A stretch of DNA of 64,000 bases from a virus (lineage: Duplodnaviria; Caudoviricetes). Each line of letters begins with the position of its first letter. Position 1 is the stretch's first letter. The stretch lies in the IMG/VR virus record IMGVR_UViG_3300009370_000001. One strand, written 5' to 3'. A model generated the notes under the pieces. The model was not told where the DNA came from, searched no databases, and was given only the letters and a program-made list of their open reading frames with translations. Below, in pieces: positions 47,490-60,512 of this stretch. Made by a program: the position numbers and the translations under genes.

Positions 47490-47765
47490 ATGGCTATGGA
47501 TTCCGATTCTTCTGGTATACGGTTTCATCTTTGGAGCCAGCTACCTTCTAACCTCGTGGATGGTCTAATGAGCCCAGGCAACCTTGTAATGATTAAGCGT
47601 GCTGCTATCGGCGTGCCTGCTGGCACCCTCGCACTATGCTTGAAGCGCGACGAGAAGCGCGGAGATTATGACGAAGGCCATGAGATTTGGACAGTCCAGC
47701 TTATGCATGGGCAGCTACGGGGCATTGAGCGCCGGTATCTTGATATTGATTTGGAGATATTGTGA
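47490..47765 (+). CDS. SH3/KOW-like family protein
   Basis: PGNLVMI...YLDIDLEIL; start placed downstream of the promoter. Confidence 0.5.
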   Translation: MAMDSDSSGIRFHLWSQLPSNLVDGLMSPGNLVMIKRAAIGVPAGTLALCLKRDEKRGDYDEGHEIWTVQLMHGQLRGIERRYLDIDLEIL

Positions 47766-47965
47766 AAGTCGGTGACTTGGTAAAGAGCGCAGATCGTTTA
47801 GTTGGCAATCGGAATCGCATGCGCCTGGGAGTGATCGTAGAGGTAGACCCCGATAAAGCCGATCAACCGGGTTGTTTCGGGAGTTGTTTTATCCAGTGGA
47901 TAGGCGATGCAGATTGGACATTCGTGTACGAAGAAGATATTGAGGTAATCAATGAAGGTCGGTGA
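47762..47965 (+). CDS. MKVGDLV-family small SH3/KOW-like protein
   Basis: MKVGDLVKS...GVIVEV...IQW...EDIEVINEGR. Confidence 0.7.
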   Translation: MKVGDLVKSADRLVGNRNRMRLGVIVEVDPDKADQPGCFGSCFIQWIGDADWTFVYEEDIEVINEGR

Positions 47966-48140
47966 TTTAGTAAGAAACCTTAACTCGGAAAGCGGTCTGC
48001 TTGGCGTTATTGTTTACTGGACAGATACCAAATGGCCCGACAACAATCAATGTACGAACCATCCAGTCGTACACTGGAACGACGGGCGCACAAGTTGGAT
48101 TATGGCGCATCGTGTGGAGATTATAAATGCAAATCGGTGA
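47952..48140 (+). CDS. MKVGDLV-family small SH3/KOW-like protein
   Basis: MKVGDLVRN...GVIV...VVHW...VEIINANR. Confidence 0.7.
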   Translation: MKVGDLVRNLNSESGLLGVIVYWTDTKWPDNNQCTNHPVVHWNDGRTSWIMAHRVEIINANR

Positions 48141-48351
48141 CATTGTAAGGGTACATTGGGGCGCATGCGACTGGTCCGGCACGGAAGGTGTTGACTGGGG
48201 ATATGGCGTTGGCGTTGTGACGGGCGATATTGTGTGGTGGGAGAACACACGGCGTCTTGTGTCTCCGTGCGGCGACGTAGAGATTCTATTTCGCGGCGAG
48301 CGCGTAAACTATAACCTTGGTCGGCTGGAGATTGTAAATGAAAGTCGGTGA
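48127..48351 (+). CDS. MKVGDLV-family small SH3/KOW-like protein
   Basis: MQIGDIVRV...GVV...LEIVNESR. Confidence 0.7.
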   Translation: MQIGDIVRVHWGACDWSGTEGVDWGYGVGVVTGDIVWWENTRRLVSPCGDVEILFRGERVNYNLGRLEIVNESR

Positions 48352-48520
48352 CTTGGTGAGATATAAAGATTCACTCCGCGATGACGTGGGAGTTGTAATG
48401 AAAATACAAACCGAGGGATCGTGTTCAATCTTTGGTCACACAGTGATCGTACAGACAACCGATGGGATTTGCCGTCAATATACCGAAAAGAATCTGGAGA
48501 TTTTAAATGCAAGTCGGTGA
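48338..48520 (+). CDS. MKVGDLV-family small SH3/KOW-like protein
   Basis: MKVGDLVRY...GVVMKI...LEILNASR. Confidence 0.7.
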   Translation: MKVGDLVRYKDSLRDDVGVVMKIQTEGSCSIFGHTVIVQTTDGICRQYTEKNLEILNASR

Positions 48521-48695
48521 CTTGGTAAAGATTGTGCAGTCAGCAATAGATCCGCTCAAGACTCCATTTTTGGAACAGGTCGGTGTGATTGTTAGAAAGA
48601 CTACACTTGAATCAGAACAAAACGATTGGTATGATGTATTAACGCGGGATAGGATTCACTCATTCCGCGCAGACTATTTGGAGAAGATAAAATGA
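48507..48695 (+). CDS. MKVGDLV-family small SH3/KOW-like protein
   Basis: MQVGDLVKI...GVIV...YDVL...YLEKIK. Confidence 0.7.
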   Translation: MQVGDLVKIVQSAIDPLKTPFLEQVGVIVRKTTLESEQNDWYDVLTRDRIHSFRADYLEKIK

Positions 48696-48955
48696 AAGCA
48701 GGAGATTTAGTAACACTTTCGGCGTATGCGAATGGGCTTCAAGCCCTCCAGCGGTGGTCAGACCGCTTCCGCCAATACCATAAAAAGCAGCCCCTGGTGG
48801 GATTGGTGATTAAAATCTCCCCGTCTCGGTGGGCGTGGGAAGGGATGCAGTATGAAGTACGATGGATGGAGCCGCATGGGCCGAAAGGTCGGGAGGGTAA
48901 CTACGGCGTACACACATTCAACCGCAAAGATTTGAAGTTTGTGAGTCGAGGATAG
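48692..48955 (+). CDS. MKVGDLV-family small SH3/KOW-like protein
   Basis: MKAGDLVTL...GLVIKI...YEVRW...DLKFV. Confidence 0.7.
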   Translation: MKAGDLVTLSAYANGLQALQRWSDRFRQYHKKQPLVGLVIKISPSRWAWEGMQYEVRWMEPHGPKGREGNYGVHTFNRKDLKFVSRG

Positions 48956-49332
48956 TGGAAAATCTCACTCCAGAAAATTTTTTCCTGGTATTCCAGGTAT
49001 TTATCAAAGTTTTAGTTATATGGAGTCCCGTATTGTTTGGGACGTGGCTTTATATGTATTACACGCGCCCTAAAAAGCGCACAACCCAACGCAACAAAGG
49101 AAAGAAGATAATGAGAGCAGGCGAAGTATTTGAATGGCTGGATCAGGGACCAGCGGTATTGTTGGCACCATGTAAGATTGCCGATCCTATTCCCGTAGAA
49201 AAGAAGACCGAGTTTCTAAAAGATCCCGAAGGATTCTTGAAGGCATGGCCCAGCGAACAAGGCTGGACTATTAAACTTCTGGAAAGCGGCGACATCATCG
49301 ACGTGCATGAAGACACGTTGACATACTCTTGA
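48955..49332 (+). CDS. Membrane-anchored protein with C-terminal SH3-like domain
   Basis: N-terminal TM, then MRAGEVFEW; stop inside the promoter element. Confidence 0.5.
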   Translation: MENLTPENFFLVFQVFIKVLVIWSPVLFGTWLYMYYTRPKKRTTQRNKGKKIMRAGEVFEWLDQGPAVLLAPCKIADPIPVEKKTEFLKDPEGFLKAWPSEQGWTIKLLESGDIIDVHEDTLTYS

Positions 49333-58929: not shown

Positions 58930-58980
58930 CACACACTTGACAACCTAAACCTTGACAGTCACCCCGAAAAGTGCTATATT
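58926..58980 (+). promoter_or_regulatory. Repeated early promoter element
   Basis: TTGACA-5-TTGACA-9-TTGACA-17-TATATT. Confidence 0.9.
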
Positions 58981-59003
58981 GTATGCATACAACGGAGAGA
59001 ACT

Positions 59004-59674
59004 ATGACCACTTTGCCCCTTGAATCCGCCGCATATGCCTGTGAGGGCGTTATTACCGCTGTCGCAGTCCTGTCGCAAGTGCTGGAAGTCCAGCGCGTTG
59101 CGCCTGAAGACCCGCAGACCCCTGACGCAGTTAATCTGCTGTTGGAAGCCTATGCACTCGCATGCGTTGGTAGCGGCTGCGTAGCGGAGGCTTAGAATGA
59201 CTATTAAAGTTGTACGCGAGAACCGCAACCCCCGAGATCATCAGATCCGAGTGGGTGATCTGATTCGGATCGTTAATCACGATCCAACAATGTCGATCCC
59301 CCTGGCGGCTGTCCCGCACACTCTCGGCCTTGTCACAGAAATGGGAGAACCGGCGACGTGCCCCGACTACGTGATCGCTGTCTTCCCGCACCTGGGCGAG
59401 ACAGTCGTATACGAAGACGAATGGGAAGTGATTAGTGTTTGACGTGGGAACCATTGTATCAGTTATTTCGACCGACCAGCCACTTAAAGGGATCGTCGTG
59501 CCGAATGGTTTTGATCCACCCGTGCATATCAACGCGGATCTTAAGACTCCGCCCTATCCGTGGGATGATCTTCCCGGTGTATCAATGGTGCTGATTACAA
59601 GTAGCGGAGAGTATCAAGGAAAAGTGTATCCCTTTCAGAAGCATCAACTGGAGATTATAAGTGACTCAAGTTAA
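59004..59674 (+). other. Three small genes (59004-59195; 59197-59442 IRVGDLI; 59435-59674 MFDVGTIV)
   Basis: Last two have SH3/KOW-like starts and end EVISV / EIISDSS. Confidence 0.55.
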
Positions 59675-59972
59675 AGTCAGTATCCCGCCCGCGCTGTTCA
59701 CAGCCCCGAGCGGTCAACGCTATGCGGTTGCAGGCTCACAGTGGATTCGTGTGCCCCTGGACACGACTCACGCGACCCTTGACCAGTTTGTGAGCTACTC
59801 GCCGCCAGAAGTCCAGCAGGACGACAATAATGGATCGTGGCAAGTGCAAGGCTCCAAGGGCAACACTTATACTGTGCGCGTTCGCGCCGGTCAGTGGTTC
59901 TGCTCCTGTCCTGGCTATGGCTTTCGGCGCAAGTGCCGACACATCGAGGAGACAAGAAATGCAAATCGGTGA
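59661..59972 (+). CDS. SWIM zinc-finger protein
   Basis: GSKGNTYTV...WFCSCPGYGFRRKCRHI (CxC...CxH). Confidence 0.8.
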   Translation: MTQVKVSIPPALFTAPSGQRYAVAGSQWIRVPLDTTHATLDQFVSYSPPEVQQDDNNGSWQVQGSKGNTYTVRVRAGQWFCSCPGYGFRRKCRHIEETRNANR

Positions 59973-60168
59973 TTTGATTCGTTTTGTTAATACGGGTTGT
60001 CATGGCGTGGTTCTGTCCGTCCGTCCGTCCCGCCACCACATCGATCCCGACTGGATTTATGTCTTGTGCGGTCCTGATGCTGATGGCCACCGGGCAACAG
60101 GCGAACCTACGGCTTTTCCCAGGGACTACCTCGCAAGAGTGTCGGAGGTTATAAATGCAAGTCGGTGA
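59959..60168 (+). CDS. MKVGDLV-family small SH3/KOW-like protein
   Basis: MQIGDLIRF...GVVL...EVINASR; true ATG 59959. Confidence 0.7.
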   Translation: MQIGDLIRFVNTGCHGVVLSVRPSRHHIDPDWIYVLCGPDADGHRATGEPTAFPRDYLARVSEVINASR

Positions 60169-60343
60169 TCTCGTAGTGTTTAGGGATGACCGGGTGCCTG
60201 GAGTGATTGTAGCAGAAAGGCGCGACGATCCGCTCCCCAAGAAACTCCGTGTGGGTGTATTGTGGATCGATTGTAATGATGTGTCGTGGGAGCCAATCCA
60301 ATACTTGCGAGTGATAAGCGAGACAGATAATGAAAATCGGTGA
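60155..60343 (+). CDS. MKVGDLV-family small SH3/KOW-like protein
   Basis: MQVGDLVVF...GVIV...VLW...LRVISETDNENR. Confidence 0.7.
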   Translation: MQVGDLVVFRDDRVPGVIVAERRDDPLPKKLRVGVLWIDCNDVSWEPIQYLRVISETDNENR

Positions 60344-60512
60344 TCTAATAACATTTCAGATTGACTATGATTCAGAGTGTATTGAAGATATAGGGATTGT
60401 CACAGAAATAGAACCGACTCTTGGTTATGCCATAATCGCATGGCCGTGGGGACAGGGGCGACACCGCACATGCGGGTTGCATATATTAAGCGAGAACGGA
60501 GAACAAGAATGA
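60330..60512 (+). CDS. MKVGDLV-family small SH3/KOW-like protein
   Basis: MKIGDLITF...GIVTEI...IAW...LHILSE. Confidence 0.7.
   Translation: MKIGDLITFQIDYDSECIEDIGIVTEIEPTLGYAIIAWPWGQGRHRTCGLHILSENGEQE

What the first reader, a model, noticed from the sequence alone, without database searches (positions are those of the whole stretch)
47750..60345. One conserved ~30-nt junction is RBS, start, stop and last beta-strand at once
Seen: GGAG(A/G)T(T/A)NTAAATG(A/C)A(A/G)(G/A)TCGGTGA(T/C)TT(G/A)GT-like junctions give an exact 14-nt overlap at 47952/47965, 48127/48140, 48338/48351, 48507/48520, 59959/59972, 60155/60168 and 60330/60343 (17 nt at 50486/50502). The upstream genes therefore end in NEGR, NANR, NESR, NASR or NENR, which are just the next gene's ATG...GGTGA read in another frame. 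The RBS GGAG/GAGG encodes the E-I/V of the final strand. Even an unrelated SWIM gene (59661) is joined this way. Inference: crossover at this junction yields a complete, translationally coupled gene, a second, finer tier of plug-in modularity nested inside the promoter cassettes.
Basis: partly seen in the sequence, partly recalled or inferred. Interest (0 to 1): 0.8.

Follow-up and report, generated by a model that had tools for sequence, protein, structure and literature searches.

The report
Shared overlap junction shuffles phage mini-genes
In a group of large uncultured marine phages, hundreds of tiny SH3-like protein genes are joined head to tail by one ~30-base overlap that holds the ribosome site and start of one gene and the last strand and stop of the gene before. 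Comparison of related phages shows whole genes gained, lost and re-ordered exactly at this overlap.

Summary
All seven 14-nt overlaps and the 17-nt variant are at the stated coordinates. The upstream tails (NEGR, NANR, NESR, NASR, NENR) are the next gene's ATG-xxx-xxx-GGT-GA read in another frame.

In 80 related viral contigs, 430 of 660 canonical family genes use the same 14-nt overlap. In 72 of these the upstream gene is not a family HMM hit; the SWIM and MazG-like genes are the clear cases.

Amino-acid conservation does not explain the junction:
- Gly4 is GGT in 89% of gene clusters, and in 70% even without the overlap. The family's other conserved Gly is GGT in 24%.
- Val3 is never GTT in the 430 overlapping genes.

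Gene order is not invariant:
- 61% of testable clusters have more than one downstream partner.
- Homology breakpoints between relatives pile up in the junction.
- Eight distinct whole-gene indels have their crossover inside the junction core. The window also differs from its closest relative (L001) by one such 196-nt gene.

So the junction is a dual-coding translation module and the crossover point of a gene-level shuffling tier, inside promoter-cassette units. Translational coupling is plausible but untested.

It is a new variant of PeSL-type modular shuffling.

The parts
47762..47965 (+). Family mini-gene (67 aa, GTG start). Its stop lies in the next gene's Gly4-Asp5 codons.
   Evidence: HMM E 9.5e-9
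47939..47971 (+). Junction 1: SD GAGG, ATG 47952, upstream stop TGA 47963-47965 (14-nt overlap).
   Evidence: D4
47952..48140 (+). Family mini-gene (62 aa), tail NANR.
48114..48146 (+). Junction 2 (ATG 48127, stop ends 48140).
48127..48351 (+). Family mini-gene (74 aa), tail NESR.
48325..48357 (+). Junction 3 (ATG 48338, stop ends 48351).
48338..48520 (+). Family mini-gene (60 aa), modelled as a five-strand SH3-like barrel. The last strand LEILN carries the next gene's GGAG and the A-T of its ATG.
48494..48526 (+). Junction 4 (ATG 48507, stop ends 48520).
48507..48695 (+). Family mini-gene (62 aa), joined to the next family gene (48692-48955) by a 4-nt ATGA overlap. The next gene has GGA at Gly4, so it supplies no TGA.
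50281..50502 (+). Family mini-gene with an N-terminal extension, tail AASR.
50473..50505 (+). 17-nt junction variant. The next gene has one extra codon (M-L-Q-V-G-D); ATG 50486, stop ends 50502.
50486..50734 (+). Family mini-gene (82 aa).
50810..51019 (+). Family mini-gene with the same ATGAAGGTCGGTGAT start but no overlapping upstream gene. Its own stop is the TGA of the TTGACA box of a promoter cassette.
53146..53355 (+). Solitary family mini-gene with the full junction core but no overlap. Its stop lies in a TTGACA box.
59661..59972 (+). Unrelated SWIM zinc-finger gene whose stop (tail NANR) is supplied by the next family gene.
59946..59978 (+). Junction SWIM to family gene (ATG 59959). This is the left crossover site of the one-gene indel against L001.
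59959..60168 (+). Family mini-gene (69 aa) present in the window and absent from the closest relative L001. It forms an exact 196-nt, junction-to-junction indel.
60142..60174 (+). Junction (ATG 60155, stop ends 60168). This is the right crossover site of the same indel.
60155..60343 (+). Family mini-gene (62 aa), tail NENR.
60317..60349 (+). Junction (ATG 60330, stop ends 60343) with a weak SD.
60330..60512 (+). Last family mini-gene of the array, with an ATGA overlap onto a small hydrophobic ORF.

Best explanation
The junction is the standard gene boundary of a very large, hypervariable family of 50-90-residue SH3-like beta-barrel proteins. The family is found in large (about 190-205 kb) uncultured marine phages.

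About 33 bases are read in two frames. In the upstream frame they encode the last strand (L-E-V/I-I/L), a three- to four-residue tail and the stop. In the downstream frame they carry the Shine-Dalgarno sequence (GGAG in the Leu-Glu codons), the ATG or GTG start, and M-K/Q-V/I-G-D-L-V. The TGA stop sits in GGT-GAY of Gly4-Asp5.

Shown here: selection holds the nucleotides beyond what either protein needs. Also shown: this is the only DNA shared by otherwise unrelated neighbouring genes (8-25 identical bases in register), and whole genes are deleted, inserted, swapped and moved between arrays with their ends in it. Each product is again a complete gene with a ribosome site, a start and a stop supplied by the next module.

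Inferred: the events are short-homology recombination or replication slippage between junction copies, within one genome or between co-infecting relatives.

Inferred and untested: ribosomes that terminate 11 nt past the next start re-initiate there, so the genes of an array are translated as a coupled chain from one promoter cassette.
For: - Scale: a family HMM finds 854 genes in 81 loci, all on the coding strand. Of 660 with the canonical start, 430 have the 14-nt overlap. For 358 of those the upstream gene is family; for 72 it is not a family HMM hit at E<=0.01, including SWIM, MazG-like, basic and signal-peptide proteins.
- Nucleotide constraint, counting one gene per 50%-identity cluster: Gly4 is GGT in 334 of 377 clusters, and in 99 of 142 without the overlap. 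The family's other conserved Gly is GGT in 24% (p 6e-31), and long ORFs use GGT for 33% of Gly.
- Val3 is GTC in about 60-73% of Val codons against a 20-25% background. GTT, which would put Trp at the upstream C-terminus, occurs 0 times in 430 genes against 32-37% expected.
- The Glu codon in the SD is GAG in 92% of cases against 43% inside the genes.
- Recombination: the 854 genes fall into 477 clusters. 47 of 77 testable clusters have more than one downstream partner, and 32 of 154 lie on either side of the ATPase gene in different genomes.
- blastn homology ends peak at +15 to +24 (right ends) and -15 to +4 (left ends) of the junction ATG, with almost none in neighbouring gene interiors. 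14% of all ends fall in junction windows that make up 2.1% of the DNA.
- Eight distinct whole-gene indels have both ends in the junction core. The window differs from L001 (ATPase 97%, SWIM 95% identical) by exactly one gene, with the crossover inside AAATGCAA.
- Translation: the ATG or GTG start is conserved; 79% of junction clusters have a 4-5-base SD core; GTG starts are 36% against 11% elsewhere (Fisher p 3e-8); and junction windows are less structured than gene interiors.
- Fold: AF2 pLDDT 88, with the last strand on the SD codons.
Against: - No expression, ribosome or genetic data exist, and the host is unknown.
- A strong SD would also allow independent initiation, so coupling may be weak or absent.
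- Breakpoints at gene boundaries could partly reflect selection removing chimeric genes rather than a preference for crossover at the junction.
- The junction is universally conserved, so blastn alignments extend into it by construction. The crossover can therefore only be placed inside it, not shown to need it.
- Median exact homology between two junctions in one genome is only 10 nt, which is short for classical homologous recombination.
- Many loci are close relatives (for example L003/L004 and L027/L065), so event counts are not fully independent.
- Junctions within one genome are only 1.4 percentage points more alike than between genomes, so there is no strong sign of ongoing gene conversion.
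Confidence: 0.7

Rival explanations
1. The junction is kept only for expression and protein structure. Gene gain and loss happen by random illegitimate recombination, and selection keeps only products with intact genes, so breakpoints merely appear to sit at the junction.
For: This is the classical explanation for gene-boundary mosaic joints in phages (general knowledge). 1170 of 1688 homology ends, and 36 of 52 indel pairs, lie outside junctions. Exact homology between junctions is short, with a median of 10 nt.
Against: In the indels examined, the short allele matches the left flank of one junction and the right flank of another, with 8-20 shared bases at the switch and no filler or scars. 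The two flanking alignments overlap by 14-51 nt on the short allele, the signature of repeat-mediated events. Random joins would seldom restore the frame, stop and start exactly.
Confidence: 0.15
2. The junction is a passive by-product. An ancestral overlapping gene pair was copied by tandem duplication, and amino-acid conservation of M-K-V-G-D and L-E-V-I keeps the junction looking alike.
For: 358 of 430 junctions join two family members. Both protein motifs persist in family genes that lack the overlap.
Against: Synonymous sites elsewhere in the genes are at background (core Gly GGT 24%), yet Gly4 is 89% GGT. Seventy-two junctions have an upstream gene that is not a family HMM hit at E<=0.01, and 46 of these give no family signal even at E<1. 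Neighbours and positions of the same gene differ between genomes.
Confidence: 0.05
3. The conserved RNA around the start is an operator for a phage RNA-binding regulator or nuclease. Examples would be a RegA-like translational repressor, or a RegB-like endonuclease that cuts GGAG. Under this reading, that is why the nucleotides are fixed even where there is no overlap.
For: GGT, GTC and AAA remain strongly preferred in family genes with no overlapping upstream gene. The SD is typically GGAG or GGAGG. T4 uses such regulators on early mRNAs (PMC3014915, listed but not read in detail).
Against: No regulator was identified. No conserved RNA structure was found; the junction is less folded than gene interiors. 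This reading does not explain the absence of GTT specifically when an upstream gene reads through. It is not exclusive of the main explanation.
Confidence: 0.1
4. A dedicated site-specific enzyme (recombinase or homing nuclease) recognises the junction and moves the cassettes, as in integrons.
For: The junction is a fixed, oriented sequence at both ends of each cassette.
Against: The junction has no inverted-repeat or attC-like structure. No recombinase was noticed in the region, though none was searched for systematically. Crossover points vary within the core, as expected for homology-driven rather than site-specific exchange.
Confidence: 0.03

Closest known systems
[quoted passage not shown] 2010, PMC2839356; Comeau et al. 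2014, PMC4122927)
   Same: A short conserved sequence is repeated between otherwise unrelated small genes of a hyperplastic region. Indel and replacement breakpoints between related phages lie in it, and the exchanged unit arrives with its expression signals.
   Different: PeSLs are non-coding promoter-plus-terminator elements. This junction is coding in two frames, has no promoter or stem-loop, is only about 33 nt long, and supplies a ribosome site, start and stop rather than transcription signals. The window also has PeSL-like triple-TTGACA promoter cassettes, so the junction is a second, finer level.
Translational coupling of overlapping gene pairs by termination-reinitiation (Huber et al. 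2019, PMC6728339; review PMC12548453)
   Same: Co-directional genes whose stop and start regions overlap, with an SD inside the upstream gene.
   Different: Known coupled pairs overwhelmingly use 4-nt (ATGA) or 1-nt overlaps, and longer overlaps are thought to be selected against (PMC12548453). Here a 14-nt overlap is the norm (430 cases against 87 of 4 nt) and is repeated as a standard part. Coupling itself is untested.
Integron gene cassettes
   Same: Arrays of promoter-less, exchangeable single-gene cassettes are expressed from an upstream promoter, each bounded by a repeated site.
   Different: No integrase was noticed (none was searched for) and the junction has no attC-like fold. The site is inside coding sequence, and exchange appears to be driven by homology.
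Small SH3-like / KOW / Tudor beta-barrels (e.g. PetP 7r0w_V, eS4 KOW, R67 DHFR 2rh2, B. subtilis YorP 2heq)
   Same: Five-strand barrel, TM 0.65-0.77 to the AF2 model.
   Different: No sequence family matches (Pfam and PHROGs). Foldseek E-values are only about 1e-2, and the function is unknown.

Membership tests
PeSL-type mobile regulatory cassette | Short conserved sequence repeated between variable ORFs of a hyperplastic region | tested here: met
   9 copies in the window. 430 junctions in 81 loci. Confined to one 10-15 kb region in five complete genomes, except that one of them has two locations.
PeSL-type mobile regulatory cassette | Composite of an early promoter and a stem-loop terminator | tested here: not met
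   The junction lies wholly in coding sequence and is less structured than gene interiors (-15.2 against -18.8 kcal/mol). The promoter-like repeats are separate elements (D1).
PeSL-type mobile regulatory cassette | Indel and replacement breakpoints between related phages fall in the element | tested here: met
Translationally coupled overlapping gene pair | Co-directional overlap of the upstream stop with the downstream start region, and an SD inside the upstream ORF | tested here: met
   14-nt overlap. 79% of junction clusters have GGAGG, GGAG or GAGG at -18 to -4.
Translationally coupled overlapping gene pair | Downstream translation depends on translation of the upstream gene | not testable with these tools
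   No RNA or ribosome data. GTG starts at 36% against 11% elsewhere are only suggestive.
Integron cassette | attC-like imperfect inverted repeat at the cassette boundary | tested here: not met
   No excess folding at the junction.
Integron cassette | Linked tyrosine integrase | not tested
   No systematic search was made. None was noticed among the ORFs scanned.
SH3-like small beta-barrel fold | Five antiparallel strands forming a small barrel, with structural matches to known members | tested here: met
   AF2 pLDDT 88 with five strands. Foldseek TM 0.65-0.77 to PetP, KOW, Tudor and R67 DHFR.
Any Pfam / PHROG family for the mini-proteins | Profile match above threshold | tested here: not met
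   No Pfam hit, and PHROG hits only at E > 0.05.
SWIM zinc finger (gene 59661-59972) | Pfam PF04434 above the gathering score | tested here: met
   22.3 bits against a cut-off of 19.6.

The most novel reading that the evidence does not exclude
The junction is an evolved, enzyme-free cassette system. Genes of the array carry no stop of their own; 73% of family genes take it from the first bases of whatever module follows, which is either GGTGA of a family gene, ATGA/GTGA, or the TGA of a TTGACA promoter box. Any crossover between two junctions therefore yields a fully functional, co-expressed gene. Selection for this evolvability would keep the nucleotides fixed even in copies that are not currently overlapped. 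The phages would then hold a rapidly re-sorted combinatorial library of SH3-like binder proteins, perhaps host-takeover or anti-defence factors.
Probability: 0.25. Interest if true: 0.8.

Novelty: new variant of a known kind. Interest (0 to 1): 0.6.

Why it matters
Phage genomes are mosaics. It is still debated whether novel joints arise at random and are filtered by selection, or are guided by short conserved boundary sequences.

This case offers hundreds of copies of one defined 33-nt boundary, with visible junction-to-junction indels between near-identical phages. That makes the question testable by counting, in long-read viromes or in a model phage carrying synthetic arrays.

It also shows that a 14-nt dual-coding overlap, usually thought to be disfavoured, can be the standard gene boundary of a family with at least 8,000 sequence clusters. 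The overlap writes the C-terminal tail of unrelated proteins.

As an engineering idea, it is a natural scarless part for chaining small genes.

Tried and rejected
- No whole genome is held for the window.
- Megablast of 47000-61000 against cultured phages found no match. tblastn of a consensus-like family member (P0002) against cultured phages found none at E<=0.01. The nearest cultured relatives of the ATPase are only 32% identical, so no annotated relative was available.
- Pfam and PHROGs give nothing for the mini-proteins.
- Reads: only Logan contigs of four marine runs could be laid. The many 'joints' between junction positions have sides of 18-36 letters at 90% likeness. They are therefore junction repeats of other phages matching two places, and not evidence of recombinants in this strain. 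No support is drawn from them.
- No RNA holder is listed.
- RNA structure at the junction is rejected: these windows are less folded than gene interiors.
- Concerted evolution: junctions within one genome are only 1.4 points more alike than between genomes. This is significant by permutation but too small to argue for gene conversion.
- Polyprotein by frameshift or TGA recoding is rejected: the start codon and SD are conserved and the long ORFs are intact under table 11.
- The first family HMM had 140 match states because of a gappy alignment, and start sites had to be re-set by motif. 194 HMM hits without a canonical M-x-x-G-D start were left out of the codon statistics.
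Full report
**1. What is in the window**

The window is phage DNA.
- All long ORFs are on the + strand.
- There are three tRNA genes at 45160-47226.
- PHROG profile matches include a DnaB-like helicase, a DNA polymerase, a ribonucleotide reductase and GroEL.
- No cultured phage matches at DNA level.
- Earlier notes of this scan call the genome T4-like. 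I did not verify that.

From 47.4 to 60.6 kb the DNA is cut into units by a 65-nt promoter-like repeat: three TTGACA boxes plus TATATT, 11 copies (D1). Inside these units lie runs of 60-90-codon genes that start M-K/Q-V/I-G-D-L-V.

**2.

There are seven of 14 nt and one of 17 nt. The 17-nt case arises because the downstream gene has one extra codon (M-L-Q-V-G-D).
- The upstream frame reads A|ATG-xxx-xxx-GGT-GA as Asn, Glu/Ala, Gly/Asn/Ser, Arg, stop.
- The motif occurs 13 times, against 0.1 expected from shuffles.
- The repeat finder recovers a 33-nt junction family (D4).
- The SWIM gene is a real SWIM domain and ends NANR inside the next gene.
- An AlphaFold2 model of the 48338 gene, built from 118 family members (A2), has pLDDT 88 and five strands. 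The last strand is L53-N57, LEILN. The GGAG ribosome site is therefore the Leu-Glu codons of the last strand, the ATG starts inside the Asn codon, and the three-residue tail is loose.
- Foldseek places the model among SH3-like small barrels such as PetP, KOW, Tudor and R67 DHFR, at TM 0.65-0.77.

**3. Scale**

- The MoxR-like ATPase gene at 54847-55932 retrieved 80 related loci from IMG/VR, at 61-97% protein identity. Many come from contigs of 185-205 kb.
- A family HMM finds 854 genes in these 1.33 Mb, all on the coding strand.
- 660 have the canonical start. Of these, 430 overlap the upstream gene by exactly 14 nt, 87 by 4 nt and 22 by 1 nt.
- The 14-nt consensus is TGGAGGTgATcA|ATGAAAGTCGGTGATtTGGT.
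- In 72 of the 430, the upstream gene is not a family HMM hit at E<=0.01. 26 of these are weak hits at E<1. The clear non-members are SWIM orthologues in many loci, MazG-like proteins, small basic proteins and signal-peptide proteins. All end in x-E/A-S/G/N-R.
- A profile search of 1.84 billion representatives gives 8,197 clusters at E<=1e-3. Of the 150 best, 110 end in the junction-encoded tail.
- A strict 31-nt junction pattern hits 99 stretches of IMG/VR.
- Five complete genomes hold 6-17 strict copies each, on one strand and in one region. One of them has two locations.

**4. Is the DNA conserved beyond protein need? Yes**

Counts below use one gene per 50%-identity cluster unless stated.

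| Site | Observed | Background |
|---|---|---|
| Gly4 = GGT, all clusters | 334 of 377 (89%) | 24% at the family's other conserved Gly; 33% in long ORFs |
| Gly4 = GGT, no 14-nt overlap | 99 of 142 (70%), binomial p 6e-31 | as above |
| Val3 = GTC | about 60-73% of Val codons | 20-25% |
| Val3 = GTT in the 430 overlapping genes (per gene) | 0 | 32-37% |
| Lys2 = AAA in overlapping genes (per gene) | 84% | 34% |
| Glu in the SD = GAG | 92% | 43% inside the genes |

- GTT at Val3 would put Trp at the upstream C-terminus.
- The C-terminal h-E-h-h motif is still present in 63% of family clusters that are not followed by a 14-nt junction. It is therefore a real structural element that doubles as the SD.
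- Both frames, and something beyond them, constrain this stretch. The "fully explained by amino-acid conservation" alternative is rejected.

**5. Is gene order invariant? No**

- The 854 genes fall into 477 clusters at 50% identity, although the flanking ATPase is 61-97% identical.
- Of 77 clusters with at least two members linked to a downstream family gene, 47 have more than one downstream partner. Reciprocal orders occur, for example 9 then 39 and 39 then 9.
- 32 of 154 shared clusters lie upstream of the ATPase in some genomes and downstream in others.
- 47 of 126 clusters occur with more than one junction type.

**6. Where are the breakpoints?**

- In all-against-all blastn (at least 80% identity, at least 150 nt), right ends of homology peak at +15 to +24 of the junction ATG. 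Left ends peak at -15 to +4. Almost none fall in the neighbouring gene interiors.
- 14% of all internal ends fall in junction windows that make up 2.1% of the DNA. 17% fall in promoter-cassette windows that make up 3.5%. Both repeats are hot spots, which supports two tiers.
- Between collinear alignments there are 52 indel pairs. Twelve of them (eight distinct events) have at least three of four ends at junctions. The two alignments overlap by 14-51 nt on the short allele.
- Printed side by side, the short allele equals the left flank of one junction and the right flank of another. The switch falls inside 8-20 shared bases, and one or two whole genes are missing.
- The window itself gives the cleanest case. 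L001 has an ATPase 97% and a SWIM gene 95% identical to the window's. It lacks exactly the 196-nt gene 59959-60154, and the crossover lies inside AAATGCAA.
- Within one genome, two junctions share a median of 10 exact bases in register. 26% share 14 or more. Gene interiors share 3.

**7. How it most likely works**

*Shown.* The junction is dual-coding, is under nucleotide-level constraint, joins unrelated genes, and is the site of whole-gene indels and re-ordering.

*Inferred.* The events are short-homology recombination or slippage between junction copies. Because the next module supplies the stop, every product is complete. Across all family genes, the stop comes from:
- the next family gene in 42%;
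- an ATGA/GTGA overlap in 20%;
- the TGA of a TTGAC promoter box in 11%.

*Inferred and untested.* A ribosome ending at the TGA, 11 nt past the start, re-initiates on the ATG or GTG behind it. Three observations are consistent with this:
- a strong SD;
- GTG starts at 36% against 11% elsewhere, p 3e-8;
- low local RNA structure.

A strong SD would also allow independent initiation.

**8. Comparison with what is known**

- *PeSL cassettes.* The nearest concept is the PeSL cassette of T4-type phages, a promoter-terminator repeat at which hyperplastic-region genes are swapped (PMC2839356, PMC4122927). The junction meets two PeSL criteria, being a repeat between variable ORFs and holding the breakpoints. 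It fails the third, since it has no promoter or stem-loop. It works like a PeSL but is not one.
- *Coupled overlapping genes.* The junction also resembles coupled overlapping gene pairs. Those pairs use 4- or 1-nt overlaps, and longer ones are thought to be disfavoured (PMC12548453).
- *Integrons.* The junction is not an integron: it has no attC-like fold, and no integrase was noticed (none was searched for).

I rate it a new variant of a known kind.

**9. Caveats**

- Loci are related, so counts are not independent. Clustering reduces this but does not remove it.
- Gene starts were set by motif.
- Selection against chimeric genes could sharpen the apparent breakpoint preference.
- The read-laying experiment gave no usable evidence.
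- One 1026-nt contig from an independent study (X10) matches the SWIM gene up to 59956, with 8 differences in 324 nt, and then continues with unlike sequence. This is a weak hint of yet another downstream partner.

**10. Earlier notes of the scan**

Noticed in passing
window 43886-58990 (e.g. 49318-49382, 51016-51080, 53352-53416, 56138-56202, 58926-58990): A 65-nt promoter-like cassette (three TTGACA boxes plus TATATT) is repeated 11 or more times. It often supplies the TGA stop of the gene before it, as at 51017-51019 and 53353-53355. In the 81 loci, 92 family genes end this way. The cassettes are also about 5-fold enriched for homology breakpoints.
   Followed up: partly
81 loci; window 47762: GTG start codons are 36-41% at 14-nt junctions, against 7-13% at other family genes. 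With GTG the upstream tail begins with Ser instead of Asn (ISESR against INESR).
   Followed up: partly
P0001, P0008, P0063, P0096 (127-129 aa); P0018, P0090, P0003, P0022: Database relatives exist as in-frame two-domain fusions of two mini-genes. Others are long proteins with 3-10 tandem copies of a related K-V-G-D...L-E-L domain. The same barrel therefore also occurs as repeats within one polypeptide.
   Followed up: no
window 59641-59674: The SWIM gene's own GTG start (59661) overlaps the preceding family gene by 14 nt as well. The stop is TAA and the junction is degenerate (GGAGATTATAAGTG...).
   Followed up: no
window 54847-57474: A MoxR-like AAA ATPase (54847-55935) and a protein at 56218-57474 that I took for a VWA-domain partner sit between the arrays. 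No VWA match was obtained; its only profile hit is a PHROG annotated 'HNH endonuclease'. A family mini-gene (55932-56141, TTG/GTG start, GGC at Gly4) is wedged between them. This core pair is conserved in all 80 loci while everything around it varies.
   Followed up: no
window 49379-49510; L036:3477-3635; L059:155-367: Small, very basic proteins (MKTKKVPK..., MARKRNKNKPPK...) recur in the arrays. In relatives they are also joined to family genes by the 14-nt junction.
   Followed up: no
window 60509-60610: A 33-codon hydrophobic ORF (MNMRKAYIMIAVDIALWIIMLGL...) follows the last array gene with an ATGA overlap.
   Followed up: no
window 43921-45111, 46180-46386, 62177-62461: Further divergent family members lie outside the finding's range. 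Some have N-terminal extensions and no junction.
   Followed up: no
window 31701-33275: A phage-encoded GroEL-like chaperonin (PHROG 5725, E 9e-144).
   Followed up: no
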